UHGV virus genome: UHGV-0805728
Strand: one strand, 5' to 3'
Source: a virus
Length of the DNA: 12,967 nucleotides
The notes under the pieces: model-generated
Told to the model about the DNA's origin: nothing
Seen by the model: only the letters and a program-made list of their open reading frames with translations
Database searches by the model: none
Translations under genes and position numbers: made by a program
Part shown: positions 804 to 12,510 of the stretch, piece by piece
How positions within the stretch are numbered: the first letter of the stretch is position 1
How the letters are laid out: each line of letters opens with the position of its first letter

Positions 804-1163
804 CTACAGATGGTTGCTGAGGGTGTCAAGAAAATTATCCCGTTCTTTCTCAGAGTTTTCATGGGTGTAGCTGAAAAACATATCGAGAATAACCTTATTG
901 ATATATTCCAGCTCCTCTGTATTCAGATACTTATCAGGATCTACAATGACTTCCCAAATATCGTACAGACCGCACTCATGATATCCCCAACGCCACTCAA
1001 TTGTTAAACCGAGCGGCAAATCTTTACCGTCACAAACAACCTTCCATCTACAGATGTTGGTATCTGGACGCACCTGTGCACGGTATACCTGTACAAAATC
1101 CAATTTGAATTTGAGGTACTCGTCATACAATTTAAGTACAAAGCTCTCGATTTGTGGAGACAC
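804..1163 (-). CDS. hypothetical protein; probably the C-terminal part of a ~177-aa gene interrupted by a frame break (see 1223..1336)
   Basis: ORF-track 119 aa, but its start is a GTG at 1163 with no ribosome-binding site; its frame is open upstream to about 1247 and runs into the 37-aa ORF at an A5 run. Confidence 0.55.
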   Translation of the reverse strand: MSPQIESFVLKLYDEYLKFKLDFVQVYRAQVRPDTNICRWKVVCDGKDLPLGLTIEWRWGYHECGLYDIWEVIVDPDKYLNTEELEYINKVILDMFFSYTHENSEKERDNFLDTLSNHL

Positions 1164-1222
1164 TTTTGCAGCAAACTGTGCGTATTTGTACTTGCACTGG
1201 ATGATCTTTCTGCGTTTTGCAG

Positions 1223-1336
1223 TTAAATTTTTGCAGACAACTGTTCTTCAGTGTACCTCCACCTACGGTCAACAAACGCAACAGGGTCTTTGTCCCCATA
1301 GAGATCTTCCCAGTTAATCAGAAGCATACCTGTCAT
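1223..1336 (-). CDS. small ORF (37 aa), likely the N-terminal part of the frame-disrupted gene continuing in 804..1163
   Basis: ATG at 1336 overlaps the TGA of ORF 1333..1566 (ATGA); product MTGMLLINWEDLYGDKDPVAFVDRRWRYTEEQLSAKI; stop TAA at 1225-1223 immediately after an A5 run (1228-1232). Confidence 0.35.
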   Translation of the reverse strand: MTGMLLINWEDLYGDKDPVAFVDRRWRYTEEQLSAKI

Positions 1337-3141: not shown

Positions 3142-3855
3142 TTAAGCTTCTTCGACAATTCCTGCACCCAGGATTTTTTCATTAAGCTCTTTTGCGGTTT
3201 TAATAATATTATCCACCAGACGCTTACGGGTCTTGTCTTTCACCTGAACCTCTTCGCCACCGTTCAGAGTAGTCTTCAATTGAGACAGAATATCCTGAAG
3301 TTCAACGACAGAGAATCGCTGCAGATCTTCTGAGGTAATCTCGCCGAGAGCGATCCGGACGGTCTCACCACTTTCCATCTGCAGATTCAGGAACACGGTG
3401 TGAACATCATCTTTCACACCATTTGCTTTTGCAGACTCGACAGCATGAACCAGTTCGTCCAGGGAGGTGCACTGGTGAATCTCTGGCAGACCTGCTTCAC
3501 CTAGTACCCCTTCATCACCTTTTGCCAGGAGCTTTTTCGGTTTCTGCCCGTTCTGGATACGCTGAATATTTTCATCGTCCAGAATGATAGCTCCAGTTCT
3601 AGCTGCCAGCTCCTCTCCGTCCAACCACACTTCTCCACCAGCCGTGATGGATGCGATCTCATCTTCTGTCAGCACCCCACCGTAGATTTTTCGATCAGAC
3701 GTTCGAAACGTTTTTTCCAGTAGCTGACCTGAGTATTCATGTTCACACCGTTGCCATAAGTGCCACCTTGGTAGTAGTGGAACATAAATTCTGTGTCCGG
3801 AGCCACAGTGCGTTCTTTGCAACCCAGCCATAAGATTGTCCCAGCAGAGCAGCAC
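3142..3855 (-). CDS. ClpP-like peptidase, C-terminal fold continuation plus ~175-aa extension (second frame of a frame-disrupted gene)
   Basis: ORF-track 237 aa, but the first ~48 residues (MLLCWDNLMAGLQRTHCGSGHRIYVPLLPRWHLWQRCEHEY...) look out-of-frame. From about 3712 downward the frame reads ...GGVLTEDEIASITAGGEVWLDGEELAARTGAI, which aligns without gaps to the ClpP C-terminal region (recalled E. coli ...RDRFLSAPEAVEYGLVD) once joined to ORF 3669..4187. Confidence 0.5.
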   Translation of the reverse strand: MLLCWDNLMAGLQRTHCGSGHRIYVPLLPRWHLWQRCEHEYSGQLLEKTFRTSDRKIYGGVLTEDEIASITAGGEVWLDGEELAARTGAIILDDENIQRIQNGQKPKKLLAKGDEGVLGEAGLPEIHQCTSLDELVHAVESAKANGVKDDVHTVFLNLQMESGETVRIALGEITSEDLQRFSVVELQDILSQLKTTLNGGEEVQVKDKTRKRLVDNIIKTAKELNEKILGAGIVEEA

Positions 3856-4187
3856 ATCCCTTCAGCATGTACAACAACGCTTGCCTGAGACTCGCGGAAT
3901 GCCTGTAGATATGCCATTGCAATGTGCACGCAACCACCAGGGCTATTGATGATCACCCGAATGCTTTCTTCCGGCTGAGCCATACGGATCGTCTGCAGAC
4001 GAGACATATGATCTTGTAGGTCTTCCAAGTCGTCGATATAAAGAACGTGGTCAACAACAGGTGTTGGGTAGCTATATGTCTCCATAATACCACCTGGCAT
4101 ACCAAACATTTTATTACTCATCGGTTCGAAGCCGTTCTGTTTTTCTTTCATGCCGTGTACCATGGTGCTGCGAGGTGTTAAATTCAT
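3669..4187 (-). CDS. ClpP-family serine peptidase, N-terminal and catalytic portion (first frame of a frame-disrupted gene)
   Basis: ORF-track 172 aa with IINSPGG, GMCCSAGT (Ser-motif region) and FHYYQGG (His-motif region), collinear with E. coli ClpP INSPGG...GQAASMGA...IHQPLGG from memory; ATG 4187 preceded by TAAGGACC. The frame stops before the C-terminal part of the fold. Confidence 0.7.
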   Translation of the reverse strand: MNLTPRSTMVHGMKEKQNGFEPMSNKMFGMPGGIMETYSYPTPVVDHVLYIDDLEDLQDHMSRLQTIRMAQPEESIRVIINSPGGCVHIAMAYLQAFRESQASVVVHAEGMCCSAGTILWLGCKERTVAPDTEFMFHYYQGGTYGNGVNMNTQVSYWKKRFERLIEKSTVGC

Positions 4188-6013: not shown

Positions 6014-6487
6014 TTAGTCTACCTGAACCCACCCACCTGCTACTTTTTTAAACATTCTTTGGTTATCGCTTCCTCGGAACGGTTTCTTGGTTGGCAAATC
6101 TTTTATATACTTACCATCAATGATGATATCAGCCAGTTTAAGAACATCACTAGAGATATGGTCAAATGTGAACCCAGTATACACAAGAATAGTTTTCTTG
6201 TCACCAAATTTTTCCTTAATTTTCTCCATCAGGCCAATAATACCTGGCTCATTATAGTATGCCAAGGGTTCTCCACCCAGCAGAGAGATACCGCACACAG
6301 ACGGGTTGTCCAAATCTGACAAGATTTTTTGCAAGTCTTCCTCGGTGAACTCTCTCCCCTTATCTTTTGACCAAAATGCCTGATTAAAGCAACCAGGGCA
6401 AGCGTGTGGGCACCCAGATACCCACAAGGCAGTTCTAATACCTGGCCCTTCGGTGTAAGATATTTCTGTGTATCCGGCAATGTTCAT
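6014..6487 (-). CDS. nrdG: anaerobic ribonucleotide reductase activating protein (radical-SAM activase), 157 aa from ATG 6487
   Basis: Cys cluster GCPHACPGCFN characteristic of NrdG-type activases; the ATG at 6487 has an ACGGAG ribosome-binding site and an ATGA overlap with the upstream small ORF. The ORF-track start at 6505 has no ribosome-binding site. Confidence 0.85.
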   Translation of the reverse strand: MNIAGYTEISYTEGPGIRTALWVSGCPHACPGCFNQAFWSKDKGREFTEEDLQKILSDLDNPSVCGISLLGGEPLAYYNEPGIIGLMEKIKEKFGDKKTILVYTGFTFDHISSDVLKLADIIIDGKYIKDLPTKKPFRGSDNQRMFKKVAGGWVQVD

Positions 6488-6600
6488 AGATACTCCGTAC
6501 CACATTCAGGGCAATACCAAATAAAATCATCCAGCGCCTTGCACCAACGAAGATTACAATGACAACCGCACTTGCAAATTTTATAAATACCTGTAGACAT
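6484..6600 (-). CDS. small Cys-rich zinc-ribbon-like protein (38 aa)
   Basis: ATG 6600 preceded by GAGG at about 8 nt; product MSTGIYKICKCGCHCNLRWCKALDDFIWYCPECGTEYL with 7 Cys (CKCGCHC...CPEC); stop overlaps the nrdG ATG (ATGA). Not in ORF track (under 60 aa). Confidence 0.4.
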   Translation of the reverse strand: MSTGIYKICKCGCHCNLRWCKALDDFIWYCPECGTEYL

Positions 6601-6630
6601 ACTGCACCTCATAGTTCACTGTGTATCAAC

Positions 6631-6660
6631 AATATGCCACATCCTTGTGACTTTTGTCAA
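6631..6660 (-). promoter_or_regulatory. candidate sigma70-type promoter P3 (perfect -35 TTGACA, weak -10 CATATT or TATTGT)
   Basis: TTGACA at 6660-6655 begins 3 nt after the nrdD stop, as in P1 and P2; the -10 element is only a 4/6 match. Confidence 0.3.
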
Positions 6661-6663
6661 GCA

Positions 6664-6903
6664 TCAGCAACCACAACTTCCATAGTGCTTAACTCGCTCG
6701 ATAACTTCAGCTTGCTTGCCTCTATTGTAAGGACGTGAGTTAGGACTGGAAAGGTATCCAGACACACGTCGAATTACACTGATCGTTCCCTCTTCGTGGT
6801 TTCCACAGTCTGGACATACAAAGCCTTTAGCTGTCGCGCTGAACTCACCAGAGAAACCACACTTGAGACATTTATCCACGGGCTGGTTAATACCAAAATA
6901 CAT
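6664..6903 (-). CDS. nrdD: anaerobic ribonucleotide reductase NrdD, C-terminal glycyl-radical/zinc-ribbon segment (third frame piece)
   Basis: YFGINQPVDKCLKCGFSGEF...CPDCGNH...RRVSGYL matches the recalled E. coli NrdD C-terminus (YMGINVPVDRCFECGFTGEF...CPKCGNH...RRVCGYLG); its frame is open only from 6909 and overlaps the central ORF. Confidence 0.8.
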   Translation of the reverse strand: MYFGINQPVDKCLKCGFSGEFSATAKGFVCPDCGNHEEGTISVIRRVSGYLSSPNSRPYNRGKQAEVIERVKHYGSCGC

Positions 6904-8555
6904 AATGTGTTATACCCGAAGTCAACAAGAGCCTCTAAAGCATCCAGGTTGTTTTTCAGGTTAGGTGTCTCTATGTATCCAATGTTGCCACCAGAGGAGA
7001 TCATAGCAAAACCTTCTTCATACTTCCACTTATCAAAAGGTGAACTATTGATCCATACTGGTTGGTGGAAACTGTTGGTGATATATTCATGCTCGTGCTT
7101 CAATACCTCAGGATATTCACGATCCAGACAGGTTGCAGCTTTGTAGCATAAGCTTTCAGAAGGGGTGCCGTACAAGCTGAATGCTAGACCACTTTCCTTT
7201 TTGTACCGATCACAAGCATCTTTCATGTGCTGAAGGATTCCAAGAGCTAAAGCCTTGTCTCCCTCTCTCCCCAAAATCTGACAGGTTTCATACACACCAA
7301 TATACCCAATACTGATGGAAGCGTACCCGTCATAGAAGAGTTTATCAATACTCTCTTCAGGATCCAAGCGAGCAAGAGCGCCTTCACACCACATGATGGG
7401 GTTCTGACCTGCCTTTGTCCCTTTTAGGCGGTTAACCCTTACAAGGTGAGCTTCATATGCCAAATCCAGATACTCGTCAAGAACGGTAAAGAAGTCAACA
7501 CCTTCTGTTTTAGCTTTTGCTGCAATCATTGGTAGGTTGAGGCTAACAACACCCAAGTTGAATCTGCCGAGGTATTTCTCCTCACCTGTTTCTAAGTCAT
7601 TGTATTTGCTAAGAAAACTCCGGCAACCCATGCTCGTTACTTTGCCATCTGTAGAACCTGTCACCTTACGATTTAGCGGAACAGAAACAAAGTCAGGATA
7701 AATTCGCTCTGCAGAGCATTCCAGAGCTAATCGTTTCAAATCATAGTTAGGATCCTCAGGGTTCATGTTGACACCCTCTTCTAAGAAGAACAGCACTTTA
7801 GGGAACACAGGTGTGATCCGTTCTTCACCAAGACCCATTTTGTGGACTTTCAGGTAGTTTTTGGTAATCATTCTACCAAATACCGAGGTATCAAGTCCTA
7901 AACTTAATGTTATGAACGGAGTTTGCCCGTTGACAGAAGTTAATGTGTTGATTTGATAAAGCAACGTCTGCATACTGTCAAACACGTCTTTATCGGTCAT
8001 CTGCATTGCAACGCCTTCAGCATCCGGCAACCAATGCTCCTGACAAAATTTAAGGTTCTTCTCATAGGTAGCTTCAGCATACTGTGCCAGATAATGATCA
8101 ATATGGCTCATAGTCTGACCACCATATTGAGCACTAGCCACTGCACTAGAGATTTGGCTAAGGATTGTTGTTGCAACCCCTATTGACTTAGGCTTGCTGA
8201 CATGGGCGTTACCAATGTTGAATCCGTTTTCCAGCATATCTGGATAATTTACCAAACAACAGTTTGTTAGAGGGCTGATCAGATAGTCAAGATCATGTAC
8301 ATGGATGAAGCCTTTTATTGTGCTCTTCGGAGACACGGTCTGGCAGGATCTGTGTTGATGCAAGGTGTTTGCTAAGGATGCCTGCAAGCAGGTCACGATG
8401 AGTGTGTACATGATTGGTAGGCTTATTTGCGTTTTCTTTTGTAAATTCATCACAAGTGCGATCCAAGAAGCCACTAATATCTGCAAGAAGTTTTCCACCT
8501 GCCTCTCTGTTATTATCCCTTGTCTGTCTGTATTGGATGTATTCTCTGGCTGCAC
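6774..8555 (-). CDS. nrdD: anaerobic ribonucleotide reductase NrdD, central catalytic segment (second frame piece)
   Basis: From about 8315 the frame reads KGFIHVHDLDY...NIGNAHVSKPKSIG...QYGGQT, collinear with recalled E. coli NrdD (GDIHYHDLDY...MGNAEIEPPKSIS...IYGGTT). The first ~80 and last ~43 residues of the 593-aa ORF look out-of-frame. Confidence 0.85.
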   Translation of the reverse strand: MQPENTSNTDRQGIITERQVENFLQILVASWIALVMNLQKKTQISLPIMYTLIVTCLQASLANTLHQHRSCQTVSPKSTIKGFIHVHDLDYLISPLTNCCLVNYPDMLENGFNIGNAHVSKPKSIGVATTILSQISSAVASAQYGGQTMSHIDHYLAQYAEATYEKNLKFCQEHWLPDAEGVAMQMTDKDVFDSMQTLLYQINTLTSVNGQTPFITLSLGLDTSVFGRMITKNYLKVHKMGLGEERITPVFPKVLFFLEEGVNMNPEDPNYDLKRLALECSAERIYPDFVSVPLNRKVTGSTDGKVTSMGCRSFLSKYNDLETGEEKYLGRFNLGVVSLNLPMIAAKAKTEGVDFFTVLDEYLDLAYEAHLVRVNRLKGTKAGQNPIMWCEGALARLDPEESIDKLFYDGYASISIGYIGVYETCQILGREGDKALALGILQHMKDACDRYKKESGLAFSLYGTPSESLCYKAATCLDREYPEVLKHEHEYITNSFHQPVWINSSPFDKWKYEEGFAMISSGGNIGYIETPNLKNNLDALEALVDFGYNTLCILVLTSPWINVSSVVSLVSSARQLKALYVQTVETTKRERSV

Positions 8556-8787
8556 ATTTTAAACCCATATCCATAAGAGCATCTTCAACAAGGATATGGA
8601 TATTTTTTACAGAGATTGTGCCCTGATCGGCTGGTAGATTGTTAGCAACAGCTTCATTAACCGCGCAGGCGATCCGGTAAGCTTCTTCTTCAGTATGTCC
8701 AGACTCAAGTAAGGCGGACTCTGCCGCCTTGATCACCTTAATTCCGTTATAGACCTCTTCTCTACCGTCTCGTTTTACAACTTTCAC
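8293..8787 (-). CDS. nrdD: anaerobic ribonucleotide reductase NrdD, N-terminal ATP-cone segment (first frame piece)
   Basis: MKVVKRDGREEVY... and ENANKPTNHVHTHRDLLAGILSKH match the NrdD N-terminus (recalled E. coli NENANKDSKVIPTQRDLLAGIVAKH); ATG 8787 overlaps the nrdC stop (ATGA); frame ends at 8293 right after an A4 run. Confidence 0.8.
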   Translation of the reverse strand: MKVVKRDGREEVYNGIKVIKAAESALLESGHTEEEAYRIACAVNEAVANNLPADQGTISVKNIHILVEDALMDMGLKCAAREYIQYRQTRDNNREAGGKLLADISGFLDRTCDEFTKENANKPTNHVHTHRDLLAGILSKHLASTQILPDRVSEEHNKRLHPCT

Positions 8788-9062
8788 TTTTTCTCTCCAA
8801 AATTGTTCTTAACAAAAGAGATGAAATCGTCAGCACCACCAATGTGGACACTGTCAAGGTCGCTTTCTAAGAAGATTTGAGGTAACGTTCTGGGAACAAT
8901 TGGGCTACACTTCTTAATAAGCTCTTCTTTTGTATAGCCCTCCCCTAGCGTCTTGTATACAAAAGGTAGACCTTTACTGACTGCAAATTCTTTTGCTCTT
9001 ACACAATGTGGACAATTATCCTTACCGTAAATAATGATGAAAAAAGATTTTTCACAACTCAT
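8784..9062 (-). CDS. nrdC: glutaredoxin-like redoxin (92 aa)
   Basis: CPHC active-site motif near the N-terminus, TLPQIF (cis-Pro region) and HIGGADDF (GG motif), positioned between nrdB and nrdD. Confidence 0.8.
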   Translation of the reverse strand: MSCEKSFFIIIYGKDNCPHCVRAKEFAVSKGLPFVYKTLGEGYTKEELIKKCSPIVPRTLPQIFLESDLDSVHIGGADDFISFVKNNFGEKK

Positions 9063-10193: not shown

Positions 10194-11507
10194 TTACAGT
10201 GCACAACTTTCGCAGTATGGATCTTCAACTGAACTATCTGCGATCAAAGGATAGTTCTTTCTGGTTTCATCTTCAGCCTGTTTCTTGGCATGAAGTTCCT
10301 CTGCCAGTGAGTCACCAGCACCAACCCTAGAGTTTAAATAATACCATGTCTTCATCCCGAATTTAGTGGCACGGATAAGGTACCCTAGTTGCTCCTTCAT
10401 TGAAATTTTACCATCTTTCAACTTGGTGTAATCTATGTATAAATCAGCGCTGATTGCCTGACCTGTGAATTTTTGAATCACGGCATACATATCGATCATG
10501 TCGTTGGTATCAACGTCCCAAGCCGAAGTGTAATACTCTTTCAACTCATCGTATTCAGGAACGATAAACAGCACCTGCCCTTGTGGAGACTTTTTAAAGA
10601 TAATGTGCTCACGGACAGGATAAACCCCGTTAGTGGTGTTTGTTGCCAGCGAAGAGCTTTCATTAGGCATATATGCTTCAAGAACGCTATTACGTAGCCC
10701 ACCATTTTCAATGATTTGTTTACGTAACCCTTCCCAATCCTGTTTAAGAGAAGGATCTTTCACCACACTGTCGACCTCTTTGTTATAGGTGTCGATTGGT
10801 AACCAACCCTCCGGGTATTTTGTTTTATGCATCCACTCACAGACACCACGCTCTTTTGCCAATCGTAAACTTGCTTTGTGCAAGCTGTAGCTGTGAAGCT
10901 CTGCAAGATCATGGACAAGCTGTTTACTTTCCGGAGATCCGTAAGTAACCTTGTGGCTGGCAATAAAATGTGCAACATTGGTAAGGCCAACCCCGATAGA
11001 TCTGCGTTTTTTAACCGTGCTCTCCATATTCTCATACGGATATGTCATGATTTCCATAACATTGTCAATCATAAGCACCGTGTAGTATGCAACATCTTCA
11101 TACTCCTCTGGGGTAACCCTCCCAGCTACAAGAGATGATAGGAAGCACAATGCAACCTCACCATCATCAGCATCGTACTTGAAGATATTACGCATATCTG
11201 AATAGCCTTTTGTCGGAAGGGCTATCTCGGCACACAGGTTGCTTGAATAGATTACATCTTTAAAAGGTGTATGTCTATTCATCTCGTCTGTCCAGTATAC
11301 GTACAGTCTTCCTACCTCAGTACGCTGCGTGATAAGTTCAGCAGCAAGATCTCTAGCACGGATCCATGTTTTAGGAATACTGTCATCTTTAGCGATCCGA
11401 TCAACCTCTGCATCAAACTCTTCCATAGACATGGTGAAGATGCCTTCATGTAGCTGAGGTGCGTGCTTATAAGAAACAAGCATCCAATCTAAATTTTTAG
11501 TCCACAC
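10194..11507 (-). CDS. nrdA: ribonucleotide reductase class Ia large (alpha) subunit, C-terminal catalytic segment (second frame piece)
   Basis: 437-aa ORF with SNLCAEIALPT (active-site Cys loop; recalled E. coli SNLCLEIALPT) and collinear downstream sequence; its GTG at 11507 has no ribosome-binding site. Confidence 0.9.
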   Translation of the reverse strand: MWTKNLDWMLVSYKHAPQLHEGIFTMSMEEFDAEVDRIAKDDSIPKTWIRARDLAAELITQRTEVGRLYVYWTDEMNRHTPFKDVIYSSNLCAEIALPTKGYSDMRNIFKYDADDGEVALCFLSSLVAGRVTPEEYEDVAYYTVLMIDNVMEIMTYPYENMESTVKKRRSIGVGLTNVAHFIASHKVTYGSPESKQLVHDLAELHSYSLHKASLRLAKERGVCEWMHKTKYPEGWLPIDTYNKEVDSVVKDPSLKQDWEGLRKQIIENGGLRNSVLEAYMPNESSSLATNTTNGVYPVREHIIFKKSPQGQVLFIVPEYDELKEYYTSAWDVDTNDMIDMYAVIQKFTGQAISADLYIDYTKLKDGKISMKEQLGYLIRATKFGMKTWYYLNSRVGAGDSLAEELHAKKQAEDETRKNYPLIADSSVEDPYCESCAL

Positions 11508-12510
11508 GGTTGATAAACGACCTATTAATACCTATGGAATAATCCATAGTGTTGATTCTTTTTGAAGCAACAGTCATAGGGTTTCTCAAACGGATTAGCT
11601 CATCAATCTGAGGGTCCAGTGCAAGGAATGACACTGTTGCCGAACCACCACGGGATTGTTGTCTATTCTCCTTAACCCCGGCATCAATACCACGATAATA
11701 TGGAAGCTTGCCCATATGTTTAATCGTGTTACCACGAACACCATCGCCTGCAGATCTTGACGATAAATAGTAGCCAATACCTGCTTGGTTAACCGTCATT
11801 GTGTACGCAACTTCCCGTGCCACACCAATAGACTTTGCTGTATCGTCAGCTTTTATTACGCAACAAGATGCATACCCTGTCTTACCTGTGCGTAGACCGT
11901 TTAAGTACGGTGTCGGAGCATTGATCTTTAAGTCTGACAGATAAGTGTATAATTTTACAACATCGTTAATACGGCGTTCTTTCGGCATATTCTTCATGAC
12001 AGCCATCGCTATCCCCATAAACATCATCTGGGGAGATTCAAACAGGGTGTCTTTAAGAGTATCCTTGATCCCGTATTTGTCACGAAACTGTTTAAGGACT
12101 GCATAGCCATAACCGAGATCTTTACTGTGATCAATAACAGTATTTAAAGTGTTTAACTCAGTAAAGCTATAACCCATATCCTCCCAATACCCTTTCTCAA
12201 CCATGGTATTGTAGAATGAGGGTAAGGAAGGGATCTTTGTAAATCCTCCAAAAGCCTCTTTGTAGATCTGACCAATAAGAACACGACCAGCCATACGGGA
12301 ATGTGCTTCGTCTTTACGGCTAACACATGAATCTATAATAGCCTGGTTAACTTCTTTGGTTGTGCATCCATCATACAGACGTTTGTATGCATCCATTGCA
12401 ATATGTGACCAATTGCCGTTACCGTCGTCACCGAAAATAGCTGCCTTATTTAAACGTTCTGGATCGAATTCAACTTCACATCCGTTACTTTTAATTACTT
12501 TGGTGATCAA
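11497..12510 (-). CDS. nrdA: ribonucleotide reductase class Ia large (alpha) subunit, N-terminal segment with ATP cone (first frame piece)
   Basis: 337-aa ORF starting MITKVIKSNGCEVEFDPERL (ATP-cone-like) and ending at ...INTMDYSIGINRSFINRVD (recalled E. coli ...RHMDYGVQINKLMYTRL); TTG start at 12510 preceded by GGAGGAAG at 7 nt spacing. Confidence 0.9.
   Translation of the reverse strand: MITKVIKSNGCEVEFDPERLNKAAIFGDDGNGNWSHIAMDAYKRLYDGCTTKEVNQAIIDSCVSRKDEAHSRMAGRVLIGQIYKEAFGGFTKIPSLPSFYNTMVEKGYWEDMGYSFTELNTLNTVIDHSKDLGYGYAVLKQFRDKYGIKDTLKDTLFESPQMMFMGIAMAVMKNMPKERRINDVVKLYTYLSDLKINAPTPYLNGLRTGKTGYASCCVIKADDTAKSIGVAREVAYTMTVNQAGIGYYLSSRSAGDGVRGNTIKHMGKLPYYRGIDAGVKENRQQSRGGSATVSFLALDPQIDELIRLRNPMTVASKRINTMDYSIGINRSFINRVD

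What the first reader, a model, noticed from the sequence alone, without database searches (positions are those of the whole stretch)
8293..8330. nrdD N-terminal junction: +1 frame change at an A4 run
The N-terminal piece ends ...RVSEEHNKRLHPCT-stop, while the central frame reads ...TIKGFIHVHDLDY. Dropping one A from the AAAA run at 8313-8316 gives ...EEHNKGFIHVHDLDY, which matches the recalled E. coli NrdD ...QAHERGDIHYHDLDY at equal length.
Basis: partly seen in the sequence, partly recalled or inferred. Interest (0 to 1): 0.65.

Follow-up and report, generated by a model that had tools for sequence, protein, structure and literature searches.

The report
Private one-base insertion breaking phage nrdD
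The anaerobic ribonucleotide reductase gene (nrdD) of this rV5-like coliphage is thrown out of frame by one extra A that no relative has; it is one of five such private one-base indels in 13 kb, so it is most likely a sequencing or assembly error and not biology.

Summary
On the minus strand, nrdD runs in one frame from GTG 8787 to a TGA at 8295-8293 (...EEHNKRLHPCT*), and the conserved continuation (KGFIHVHDLDY...) lies in the +1 frame just after the A4 run at 8313-8316. Removing one A here, and restoring a second lost base near 6909-6911, gives a 707-aa NrdD 100% identical to that of a Logan contig (ERR975171_38). That contig has zero substitutions against the window over 10.3 kb. The A4 allele is private: all 11 fetched relatives have 3 nt at the site, and 24 of 24 full-length phage hits are one base shorter there. 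The window carries five private single-base indels (about 1228-1232, 3685, 6909-6911, 8313-8316, 11501). Each breaks a conserved ORF (174-aa ORF, ClpP-like protease, nrdD twice, nrdA), and all are T on the + strand. The window has 0 substitutions against the ERR975171 contig and 8 against the next-nearest relative. This pattern fits base-calling or assembly error, or less likely very recent real lesions or a minority variant. Programmed +1 frameshifting is rejected because the site is not conserved, has no stimulator, and a second lesion of opposite sign lies in the same gene. Interest is low.

The parts
8313..8316 (-). A4 run (T4 on + strand) holding one extra base relative to all relatives. 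This is the N-terminal frame-break of nrdD.
   Evidence: the window has AATAAAAGGC and 11 of 11 loci have AAT-NNN-GGN; 24 of 24 full-length hits span 220 nt against 221 nt in the window.
8293..8787 (-). nrdD piece 1: GTG start (overlapping the grx stop as GTGA), ATP-cone, residues 1-158 of NrdD, then 6 out-of-frame codons (RLHPCT) and TGA.
6912..8312 (-). nrdD piece 2: the catalytic NRDD barrel, residues about 159-626, in the +1 frame relative to piece 1. There is no plausible start codon of its own at the junction.
   Evidence: (PF13597, E = 8e-127).
6909..6911 (-). Second private indel. One base is missing: TATAAACAC in relatives, TATAACAC here (T3 to T2 on the + strand). This is the C-terminal frame-break of nrdD (GYKHIMYFGINQ becomes GYNTLCILV...).
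6664..6908 (-). nrdD piece 3: glycine-radical domain and Zn-ribbon, residues 627-707, back in the frame of piece 1.
   Evidence: (PF01228, PF13597 C-terminus).
1228..1232 (-). Private indel of the same class: T5 here and T6 in relatives. It splits a 174-aa ORF into the 119-aa and 55-aa ORFs (804..1163 and 1132..1299).
3685..3686 (-). Private indel of the same class: one T missing (GTAGTATTTTT becomes GTAGATTTTT). It splits the ClpP-like protease (348-349 aa in relatives) into ORFs 3669..4187 and 3142..3855.
11501..11501 (-). Private indel of the same class: an extra T (TTAGCCAC becomes TTAGTCCAC). It splits nrdA (771 aa in relatives) into ORFs 11497..12510 and 10194..11507.

Best explanation
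The window is the nucleotide-metabolism block of an rV5-like (Vequintavirus) coliphage. Its nrdD is an ordinary class III ribonucleotide reductase gene. The frame change at 8313-8316 is a one-base over-call (A3 recorded as A4) introduced during sequencing, base-calling or assembly. It is one of five such errors in this 13-kb stretch. The real phage most probably encodes an intact 707-aa NrdD reading ...RVSEEHNKGFIHVHDLDY..., so nothing functional happens at this site. Shown: the insertion, that it is private to this sequence, and that repair restores the exact protein. Inferred: that the cause is technical and not mutational.
For: (1) The allele is private. All 11 fetched relatives have 3 nt where the window has 4, including contigs 99.9-100% identical in substitutions. 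All 24 full-length rows of a spread sample from 273 phage records are one base shorter. The A4 pattern has no hit in the metagenome or genome collections, while the A3 control finds 4 metagenome contigs. (2) Logan contig ERR975171_38 (L006) has zero substitutions against the window over 10,273 bases yet carries A3 and an intact 707-aa NrdD. (3) The window has five private single-base indels and only 8 substitutions against the next-nearest relative, L004. Each indel breaks a conserved ORF: nrdD twice, nrdA, the ClpP-like protease and a 174-aa ORF. Extrapolated to 136 kb, this rate would break dozens of genes, which is not credible for a viable phage. (4) Repairing the two nrdD indels gives a protein 100% identical to the L006 NrdD, so there is no decay downstream of the breaks. 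(5) None of the three truncated products looked up (nrdD piece 1, ClpP piece, nrdA piece) is on record in 153 billion gene positions. (6) All five indels are gains or losses of T on the + strand, three of them in T runs. This points to a base-specific systematic error. L006 has its own T4/T5 discrepancy at window 2619, which suggests the related read set is prone to indels.
Against: No reads were available, so the A4 call cannot be checked directly. Two of the five indels (3685 and 11501) are not in homopolymers. The ERR975171 contig ends exactly at two of the five indel positions. This implies both alleles occur in those reads at appreciable frequency, which could reflect a real mixed population and not error. 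nrdD is dispensable under aerobic laboratory growth, so a real knockout would be tolerated.
Confidence: 0.8

Rival explanations
1. The A4 allele is a genuine and very recent frameshift mutation, either fixed or a subpopulation variant in the stock. nrdD, nrdA and the ClpP-like gene would then be real fresh pseudogenes in a phage that relies on host ribonucleotide reductases.
For: The L006 contig ends fall exactly at two of the window's indels, so both alleles appear to exist in a related read set. Phage RNR genes are auxiliary and nrdD is not needed aerobically (established knowledge). The lack of decay after the break fits a very recent event as well as it fits an error.
Against: The window shows five frameshifts against 0-8 substitutions relative to its nearest relatives, far from any normal indel-to-substitution ratio. 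All five fall in ORFs conserved across about 120 Vequintavirus genomes. At 3685, 6911 and 8316 the ERR975171 assembly runs straight through with the intact allele. None of the three truncated products looked up is seen elsewhere.
Confidence: 0.16
2. The site is a programmed +1 ribosomal frameshift. tRNA-Lys in the P site slips from AAA to the overlapping AAA while the A site waits on the host-rare AGG codon (Ty1 or prfB logic), producing full-length NrdD from two frames.
For: The sequence A-AAA-AGG-C allows perfect re-pairing after a +1 slip. AGG is a rare, slowly decoded codon in E. coli (established knowledge). No intact gene among 36 in the relative L004 uses an in-frame AAA-AGG pair.
Against: A recoding site should be conserved, and 0 of 11 loci and 0 of 24 sampled phage records have it. 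A relative with no substitution differences has the plain in-frame gene. The 88 nt downstream show no significant structure (z = -0.95). There is no Rfam hit. No strong Shine-Dalgarno-like stimulator is visible upstream in the sequence (GAAGAG only). A second break of opposite sign at 6909-6911 has no slippery heptamer, so a shift here could still not give full-length NrdD. AGG is not especially rare in the phage's own genes (4.1 per 1000).
Confidence: 0.02
3. This is a functional 'genes-in-pieces' reductase, with the ATP-cone piece, the catalytic piece and the glycyl-radical piece made as separate polypeptides that assemble, as described for the split nrdA of Aeromonas phage Aeh1.
For: Split RNR genes exist in phages (own knowledge of the Aeh1 case, not re-checked here). 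Relatives of this phage carry nrdD as two ORFs around an HNH endonuclease gene.
Against: Pieces 2 and 3 have no start codon or ribosome-binding site at the junctions. The first in-frame TTG or ATG of piece 2 lies after the conserved HVHDLDY motif. The breaks are single-base indels with no inserted element. They are private to this sequence.
Confidence: 0.01

Closest known systems
Escherichia phage rV5 gp108 (NrdD, YP_002003610.1) and the 707-aa NrdD of near-identical Vequintavirus contigs (L004-L006)
   Same: Same gene in the same synteny: nrdA, nrdB, grx, nrdD, then small ORFs, then nrdG. The region is about 93-94% identical in DNA to rV5, and L006 has no substitution differences from the window.
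   Different: The window has one extra A at 8313-8316 and one missing base at 6909-6911, so the gene reads as three ORFs.
Bacteriophage T4 NrdD, class III anaerobic ribonucleotide reductase (PDB 1h78)
   Same: The repaired protein aligns over residues 103-701 with E = 1.4e-168 and without a gap through the junction (H..G.IHVHD.DY). It has the glycine-radical C-terminus and a Cys-rich Zn site.
   Different: The T4 crystal chain lacks the N-terminal ATP-cone region. The T4 gene is interrupted by a group I intron (own knowledge), not by a frameshift.
Programmed +1 frameshift sites (E. coli prfB CUU-UGA-C; yeast Ty1 CUU-AGG-C)
   Same: A P-site codon that can re-pair in the +1 frame, followed by a slowly decoded A-site codon (AAA-AGG here).
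   Different: The site is not conserved in any homologue, has no stimulatory element and has no regulatory logic. A second, unrelated frame-break lies in the same gene.
HNH-endonuclease-interrupted nrdD of phages FFH2, magaca, nomo and slur16, and Logan contig L003
   Same: nrdD appears as more than one ORF in an rV5-like phage.
   Different: In those phages an insert of about 800 bp carrying an HNH gene lies at the position equivalent to window 7926/7927. The window has no insert there and is broken by point indels elsewhere.

Membership tests
Class III anaerobic ribonucleotide reductase large subunit (NrdD) | N-terminal ATP-cone (PF03477) | tested here: met
   piece 1 matches with E = 8.6e-15, 55.5 bits against a cut-off of 25.8.
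Class III anaerobic ribonucleotide reductase large subunit (NrdD) | NRDD catalytic domain (PF13597) | tested here: met
   piece 2 matches with E = 8e-127; the repaired protein matches T4 NrdD with E = 1.4e-168.
Class III anaerobic ribonucleotide reductase large subunit (NrdD) | C-terminal glycine-radical domain with a Cys-rich Zn site | tested here: met
   piece 3 matches PF01228 with E = 1.7e-13. CLKCG...CPDCG and RRVSGY are present.
Class III anaerobic ribonucleotide reductase large subunit (NrdD) | Partner activase NrdG encoded nearby | tested here: met
   Window ORF 6014..6505 (-, 163 aa) lies where the 157-aa radical-SAM activase (PF04055, PF13353) is called in the near-identical L004 and L006, and where NrdG is annotated in rV5. 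The window ORF itself was not scanned separately.
Class III anaerobic ribonucleotide reductase large subunit (NrdD) | A single uninterrupted reading frame giving a full-length protein | tested here: not met
   three frames in the window as given. The feature is met after two single-base repairs.
Programmed +1 ribosomal frameshift site | Shift site conserved among homologues | tested here: not met
   0 of 11 loci and 0 of 24 sampled phage records carry the extra base.
Programmed +1 ribosomal frameshift site | P-site codon able to re-pair in the +1 frame, followed by a slow A-site codon | tested here: met
   AAU-AAA-AGG-C. The rarity of AGG in E. coli is established knowledge. AGG occurs at 4.1 per 1000 in the phage genes.
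Programmed +1 ribosomal frameshift site | Stimulatory element (upstream SD-like sequence or downstream structure) | tested here: not met
   z = -0.95 for the 88 nt downstream; no Rfam family. Reading, only GAAGAG (the Glu-Glu codons) lies upstream.
Sequencing or assembly indel artefact | The variant is private to one assembly and absent from near-identical independent assemblies | tested here: met
   The three truncated products looked up are not on record.
Sequencing or assembly indel artefact | Several similar single-base indels in the same contig, far more than expected given the number of substitutions | tested here: met
   five indels against 0 (L006) to 8 (L004) substitutions.
Sequencing or assembly indel artefact | Reads contradict the consensus at the site | not testable with these tools
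   No read access. The only proxy is the Logan assembly of ERR975171, which carries A3.

The most novel reading that the evidence does not exclude
The A4 allele is real and belongs to a heterogeneous phage population in which frameshifted and intact alleles of several nucleotide-metabolism genes coexist. The ERR975171 contig breaking exactly at two of the indel sites hints at this. Low-level +1 slippage at AAA-AGG might partly rescue the N-terminal break.
Probability: 0.03. Interest if true: 0.35.

Novelty: not a real feature. Interest (0 to 1): 0.05.

Why it matters
The finding matters mainly for quality control. This sequence should not be annotated as carrying an nrdD pseudogene, a split RNR or a recoding site. 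The whole contig should be treated as indel-error-prone, at about one frameshift per 2.6 kb in this window. If the lesions were real, the phage would have lost both its aerobic (nrdA) and anaerobic (nrdD) reductases at once. That would be mildly interesting for the dispensability of phage auxiliary metabolism, but the evidence points the other way.

Tried and rejected
(1) A degenerate scan for the A4 allele in IMG/VR found nothing. The A3 control also found nothing there, so this collection says nothing either way. The metagenome scan was informative: A4 gave 0 hits and the A3 control gave 4. The genome scan found no A4 hit, and no control was run there. (2) Exact-product look-ups for three truncated products, meant to locate the source contig or an independent copy of the indels, returned nothing. 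(3) A look-up of the neighbouring 76-aa DUF8047 protein, meant to recover the ERR975171 contig adjacent to L006, did not list that sample. (4) A literature search for ERR975171 returned no papers, so the sequencing platform is unknown. (5) An Rfam scan of the window and L003 returned nothing, so there is no known recoding element and no group I intron call for the HNH insert in relatives. (6) Folding the sequence downstream of the shift site gave no significant structure. (7) The source record is not in the phage collection, where the best hit is 97.3% identical.

Full report
Observation. The gene lies on the minus strand. The + strand reads GCCTTTTATT at 8310-8319, so the coding strand has AAT AAA AGG CTT with an A4 run at 8313-8316. 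ORF 8787..8293 (-) starts at a GTG that overlaps the glutaredoxin stop as GTGA. It encodes an ATP-cone (PF03477, E = 8.6e-15) and ends ...LPDRVSEEHNKRLHPCT*. The overlapping ORF 8555..6774 (-) reads nonsense until ...STIKGFIHVHDLDYLISPLTNCC... and from there is a strong NRDD domain (PF13597, E = 8e-127). A third piece, 6903..6664 (-), carries the glycine-radical and Zn-ribbon C-terminus.

What the window is. Megablast of 6600-8900 hits 121 phage records, mostly Escherichia phages, at 90-97% identity. The annotated close hits (rV5 itself and OX460980.1) are Vequintavirus. The best hit is OX460980.1 at 97.3%. In rV5 the region is annotated thyX, nrdA, nrdB, grx, nrdD (gp108, one 2124-nt CDS), small ORFs, nrdG, phoH, ClpP-like protease and a methyltransferase, all on one strand. 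The window has the same order.

The requested test. I took the intact 707-aa NrdD from Logan contig ERR975171_38 (L006) and ran tblastn against the window. Residues 1-158 map to frame -2 (8787..8314), residues 134-636 to frame -3 (8375..6879), and residues 627-707 back to frame -2 (6909..6667). nrdD therefore has two breaks. One is a one-base gain at the A4 run. The other is a one-base loss at 6909-6911, where relatives have TATAAACAC and the window has TATAACAC. Deleting one T at 8313 and adding one T near 6911 gives a protein identical at every residue to the L006 NrdD. It aligns with the solved T4 NrdD (1h78, E = 1.4e-168) without a gap across the junction.

Is the extra A shared? It is not. 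All 11 fetched loci have exactly three bases between AAY and GGN (AAA, AGA or AGG), and only the window has four. These loci are OX460980.1, rV5, five Logan contigs and four metagenome contigs. In a 'spread' sample of 273 phage records matching 8200-8420, every one of the 24 rows covering query positions 1-221 spans 220 bases in the record. A degenerate pattern for the A4 allele finds nothing in the viral, metagenome or genome collections. The A3 control finds four metagenome contigs but none in IMG/VR, so the IMG/VR negative says nothing either way.

The decisive context. Against its closest relatives the window differs almost only by single-base indels. Against L004 (ERR11010907, 99.90% over all 12,967 bases) there are 8 substitutions and 5 indels. 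Against L006 (ERR975171) there are 0 substitutions over 10,273 bases and 4 indels, one of which (window 2619, T5 against T4) is L006's own oddity. The five private indels are as follows.
- 1228-1232: T5 here and T6 in relatives. It splits a 174-aa ORF.
- 3685: one T lost. It splits the ClpP-like protease, which is 348-349 aa in relatives.
- 6909-6911: T2 here and T3 in relatives. This is the nrdD C-terminal junction.
- 8313-8316: T4 here and T3 in relatives. This is the finding.
- 11501: one T gained. It splits the 771-aa nrdA.
All five are T on the + strand, which is 30% T. None of the three truncated products I looked up is on record in the large gene-position index. Intact nrdA and nrdD are on record in many samples.

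Interpretation. Five frame-breaking indels with essentially no substitutions, all private and all in ORFs conserved across the genus, with no decay downstream of the breaks, is the signature of base-calling or assembly error. A viable phage would not carry about one frameshift per 2.6 kb. I put this at about 0.8. One caveat remains. L006 begins and ends exactly at the last base shared by the two alleles at 11501 and at 1228-1232. For a de Bruijn-graph contig this means both alleles occur in the ERR975171 reads at comparable depth. That fits systematic read errors in a related, possibly identical, sample, but it also fits real population heterogeneity. At the finding's own site, the same assembly runs straight through with A3.

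Rivals. Programmed +1 frameshifting is attractive on paper. A-AAA-AGG-C lets tRNA-Lys re-pair in the +1 frame ahead of a host-rare AGG codon, much like Ty1 CUU-AGG-C. It fails the defining test of conservation. No significant downstream structure is present (z = -0.95), no Rfam element matches, and no strong upstream SD-like sequence is visible. It also could not rescue the gene, because the second break needs a -1 shift at a non-slippery sequence. An A4 run is far too short for transcriptional slippage (established knowledge). A functional 'genes-in-pieces' enzyme is not supported either. Pieces 2 and 3 have no start signals at the junctions, and the first in-frame TTG or ATG of piece 2 lies beyond the conserved HVHDLDY motif. 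A genuine recent mutation or minority variant (about 0.16) cannot be excluded without reads.

Comparison with known cases. The gene is an ordinary member of the class III RNR family, with ATP-cone, NRDD and glycyl-radical domains present and the nrdG position occupied. The only feature it fails is an unbroken frame in the sequence as given. Natural interruption of nrdD does occur in this phage group, but by an insert of about 800 bp carrying an HNH endonuclease gene at the position equivalent to window 7926/7927 (FFH2, magaca, nomo, slur16, L003). That is a different thing and is absent from the window.

Verdict. The cause is most likely technical, and the finding has low interest and no novelty.

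Noticed in passing
window 1228-1232, 3685, 6909-6911, 11501: Four further private single-base indels break a 174-aa ORF, the ClpP-like protease, the nrdD C-terminus and nrdA. With the finding they make five in 13 kb, against 0-8 substitutions relative to the nearest relatives.
   Followed up: yes
L006 (Logan ERR975171_38) ends, equal to window 11500 and 1228: This contig has no substitution differences from the window. It starts and stops exactly at the last base shared by the two alleles at two of the window's indels. Both alleles therefore seem to be present in that read set, as systematic error or as a mixed population.
   Followed up: partly
all five indel sites, + strand: Every private indel is a gain or loss of T on the + strand (A on the coding strand). 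Only three lie in T runs of two or more bases. The + strand is 30% T. This strand- and base-specific bias is unexplained.
   Followed up: no
window 2619 / L006 about 8883: L006 has T4 where the window and the other relatives have T5. This shortens the 177-aa methyltransferase homologue to 160 aa in L006, so that assembly has a homopolymer discrepancy of its own.
   Followed up: partly
window 7926/7927; L003 12228-13025: Several relatives (FFH2, magaca, nomo, slur16, L003) carry an insert of about 800 bp with an HNH endonuclease ORF that splits nrdD into 287-aa and 427-aa ORFs. The window lacks it. No Rfam group I intron match reached the gathering score.
   Followed up: partly
L007 (Logan DRR023333_2124): Another rV5-like contig has several broken genes (nrdA as 510 + 280 aa, nrdD as 229 + 159 aa, an elongated grx) and its own private indels. 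It looks like a second error-prone read set.
   Followed up: no
phage collection hits to window 6600-8900: Nineteen records named 'Campylobacter phage' (for example MG065635 and MG065666) match this E. coli rV5-like region at about 93% identity over its full length. The host label looks doubtful.
   Followed up: no
window 8784-8787 and 12508-12510: nrdD starts with a GTG that overlaps the glutaredoxin stop (GTGA), which suggests translational coupling. nrdA appears to start with TTG at the position where relatives have their 771-aa gene called.
   Followed up: no
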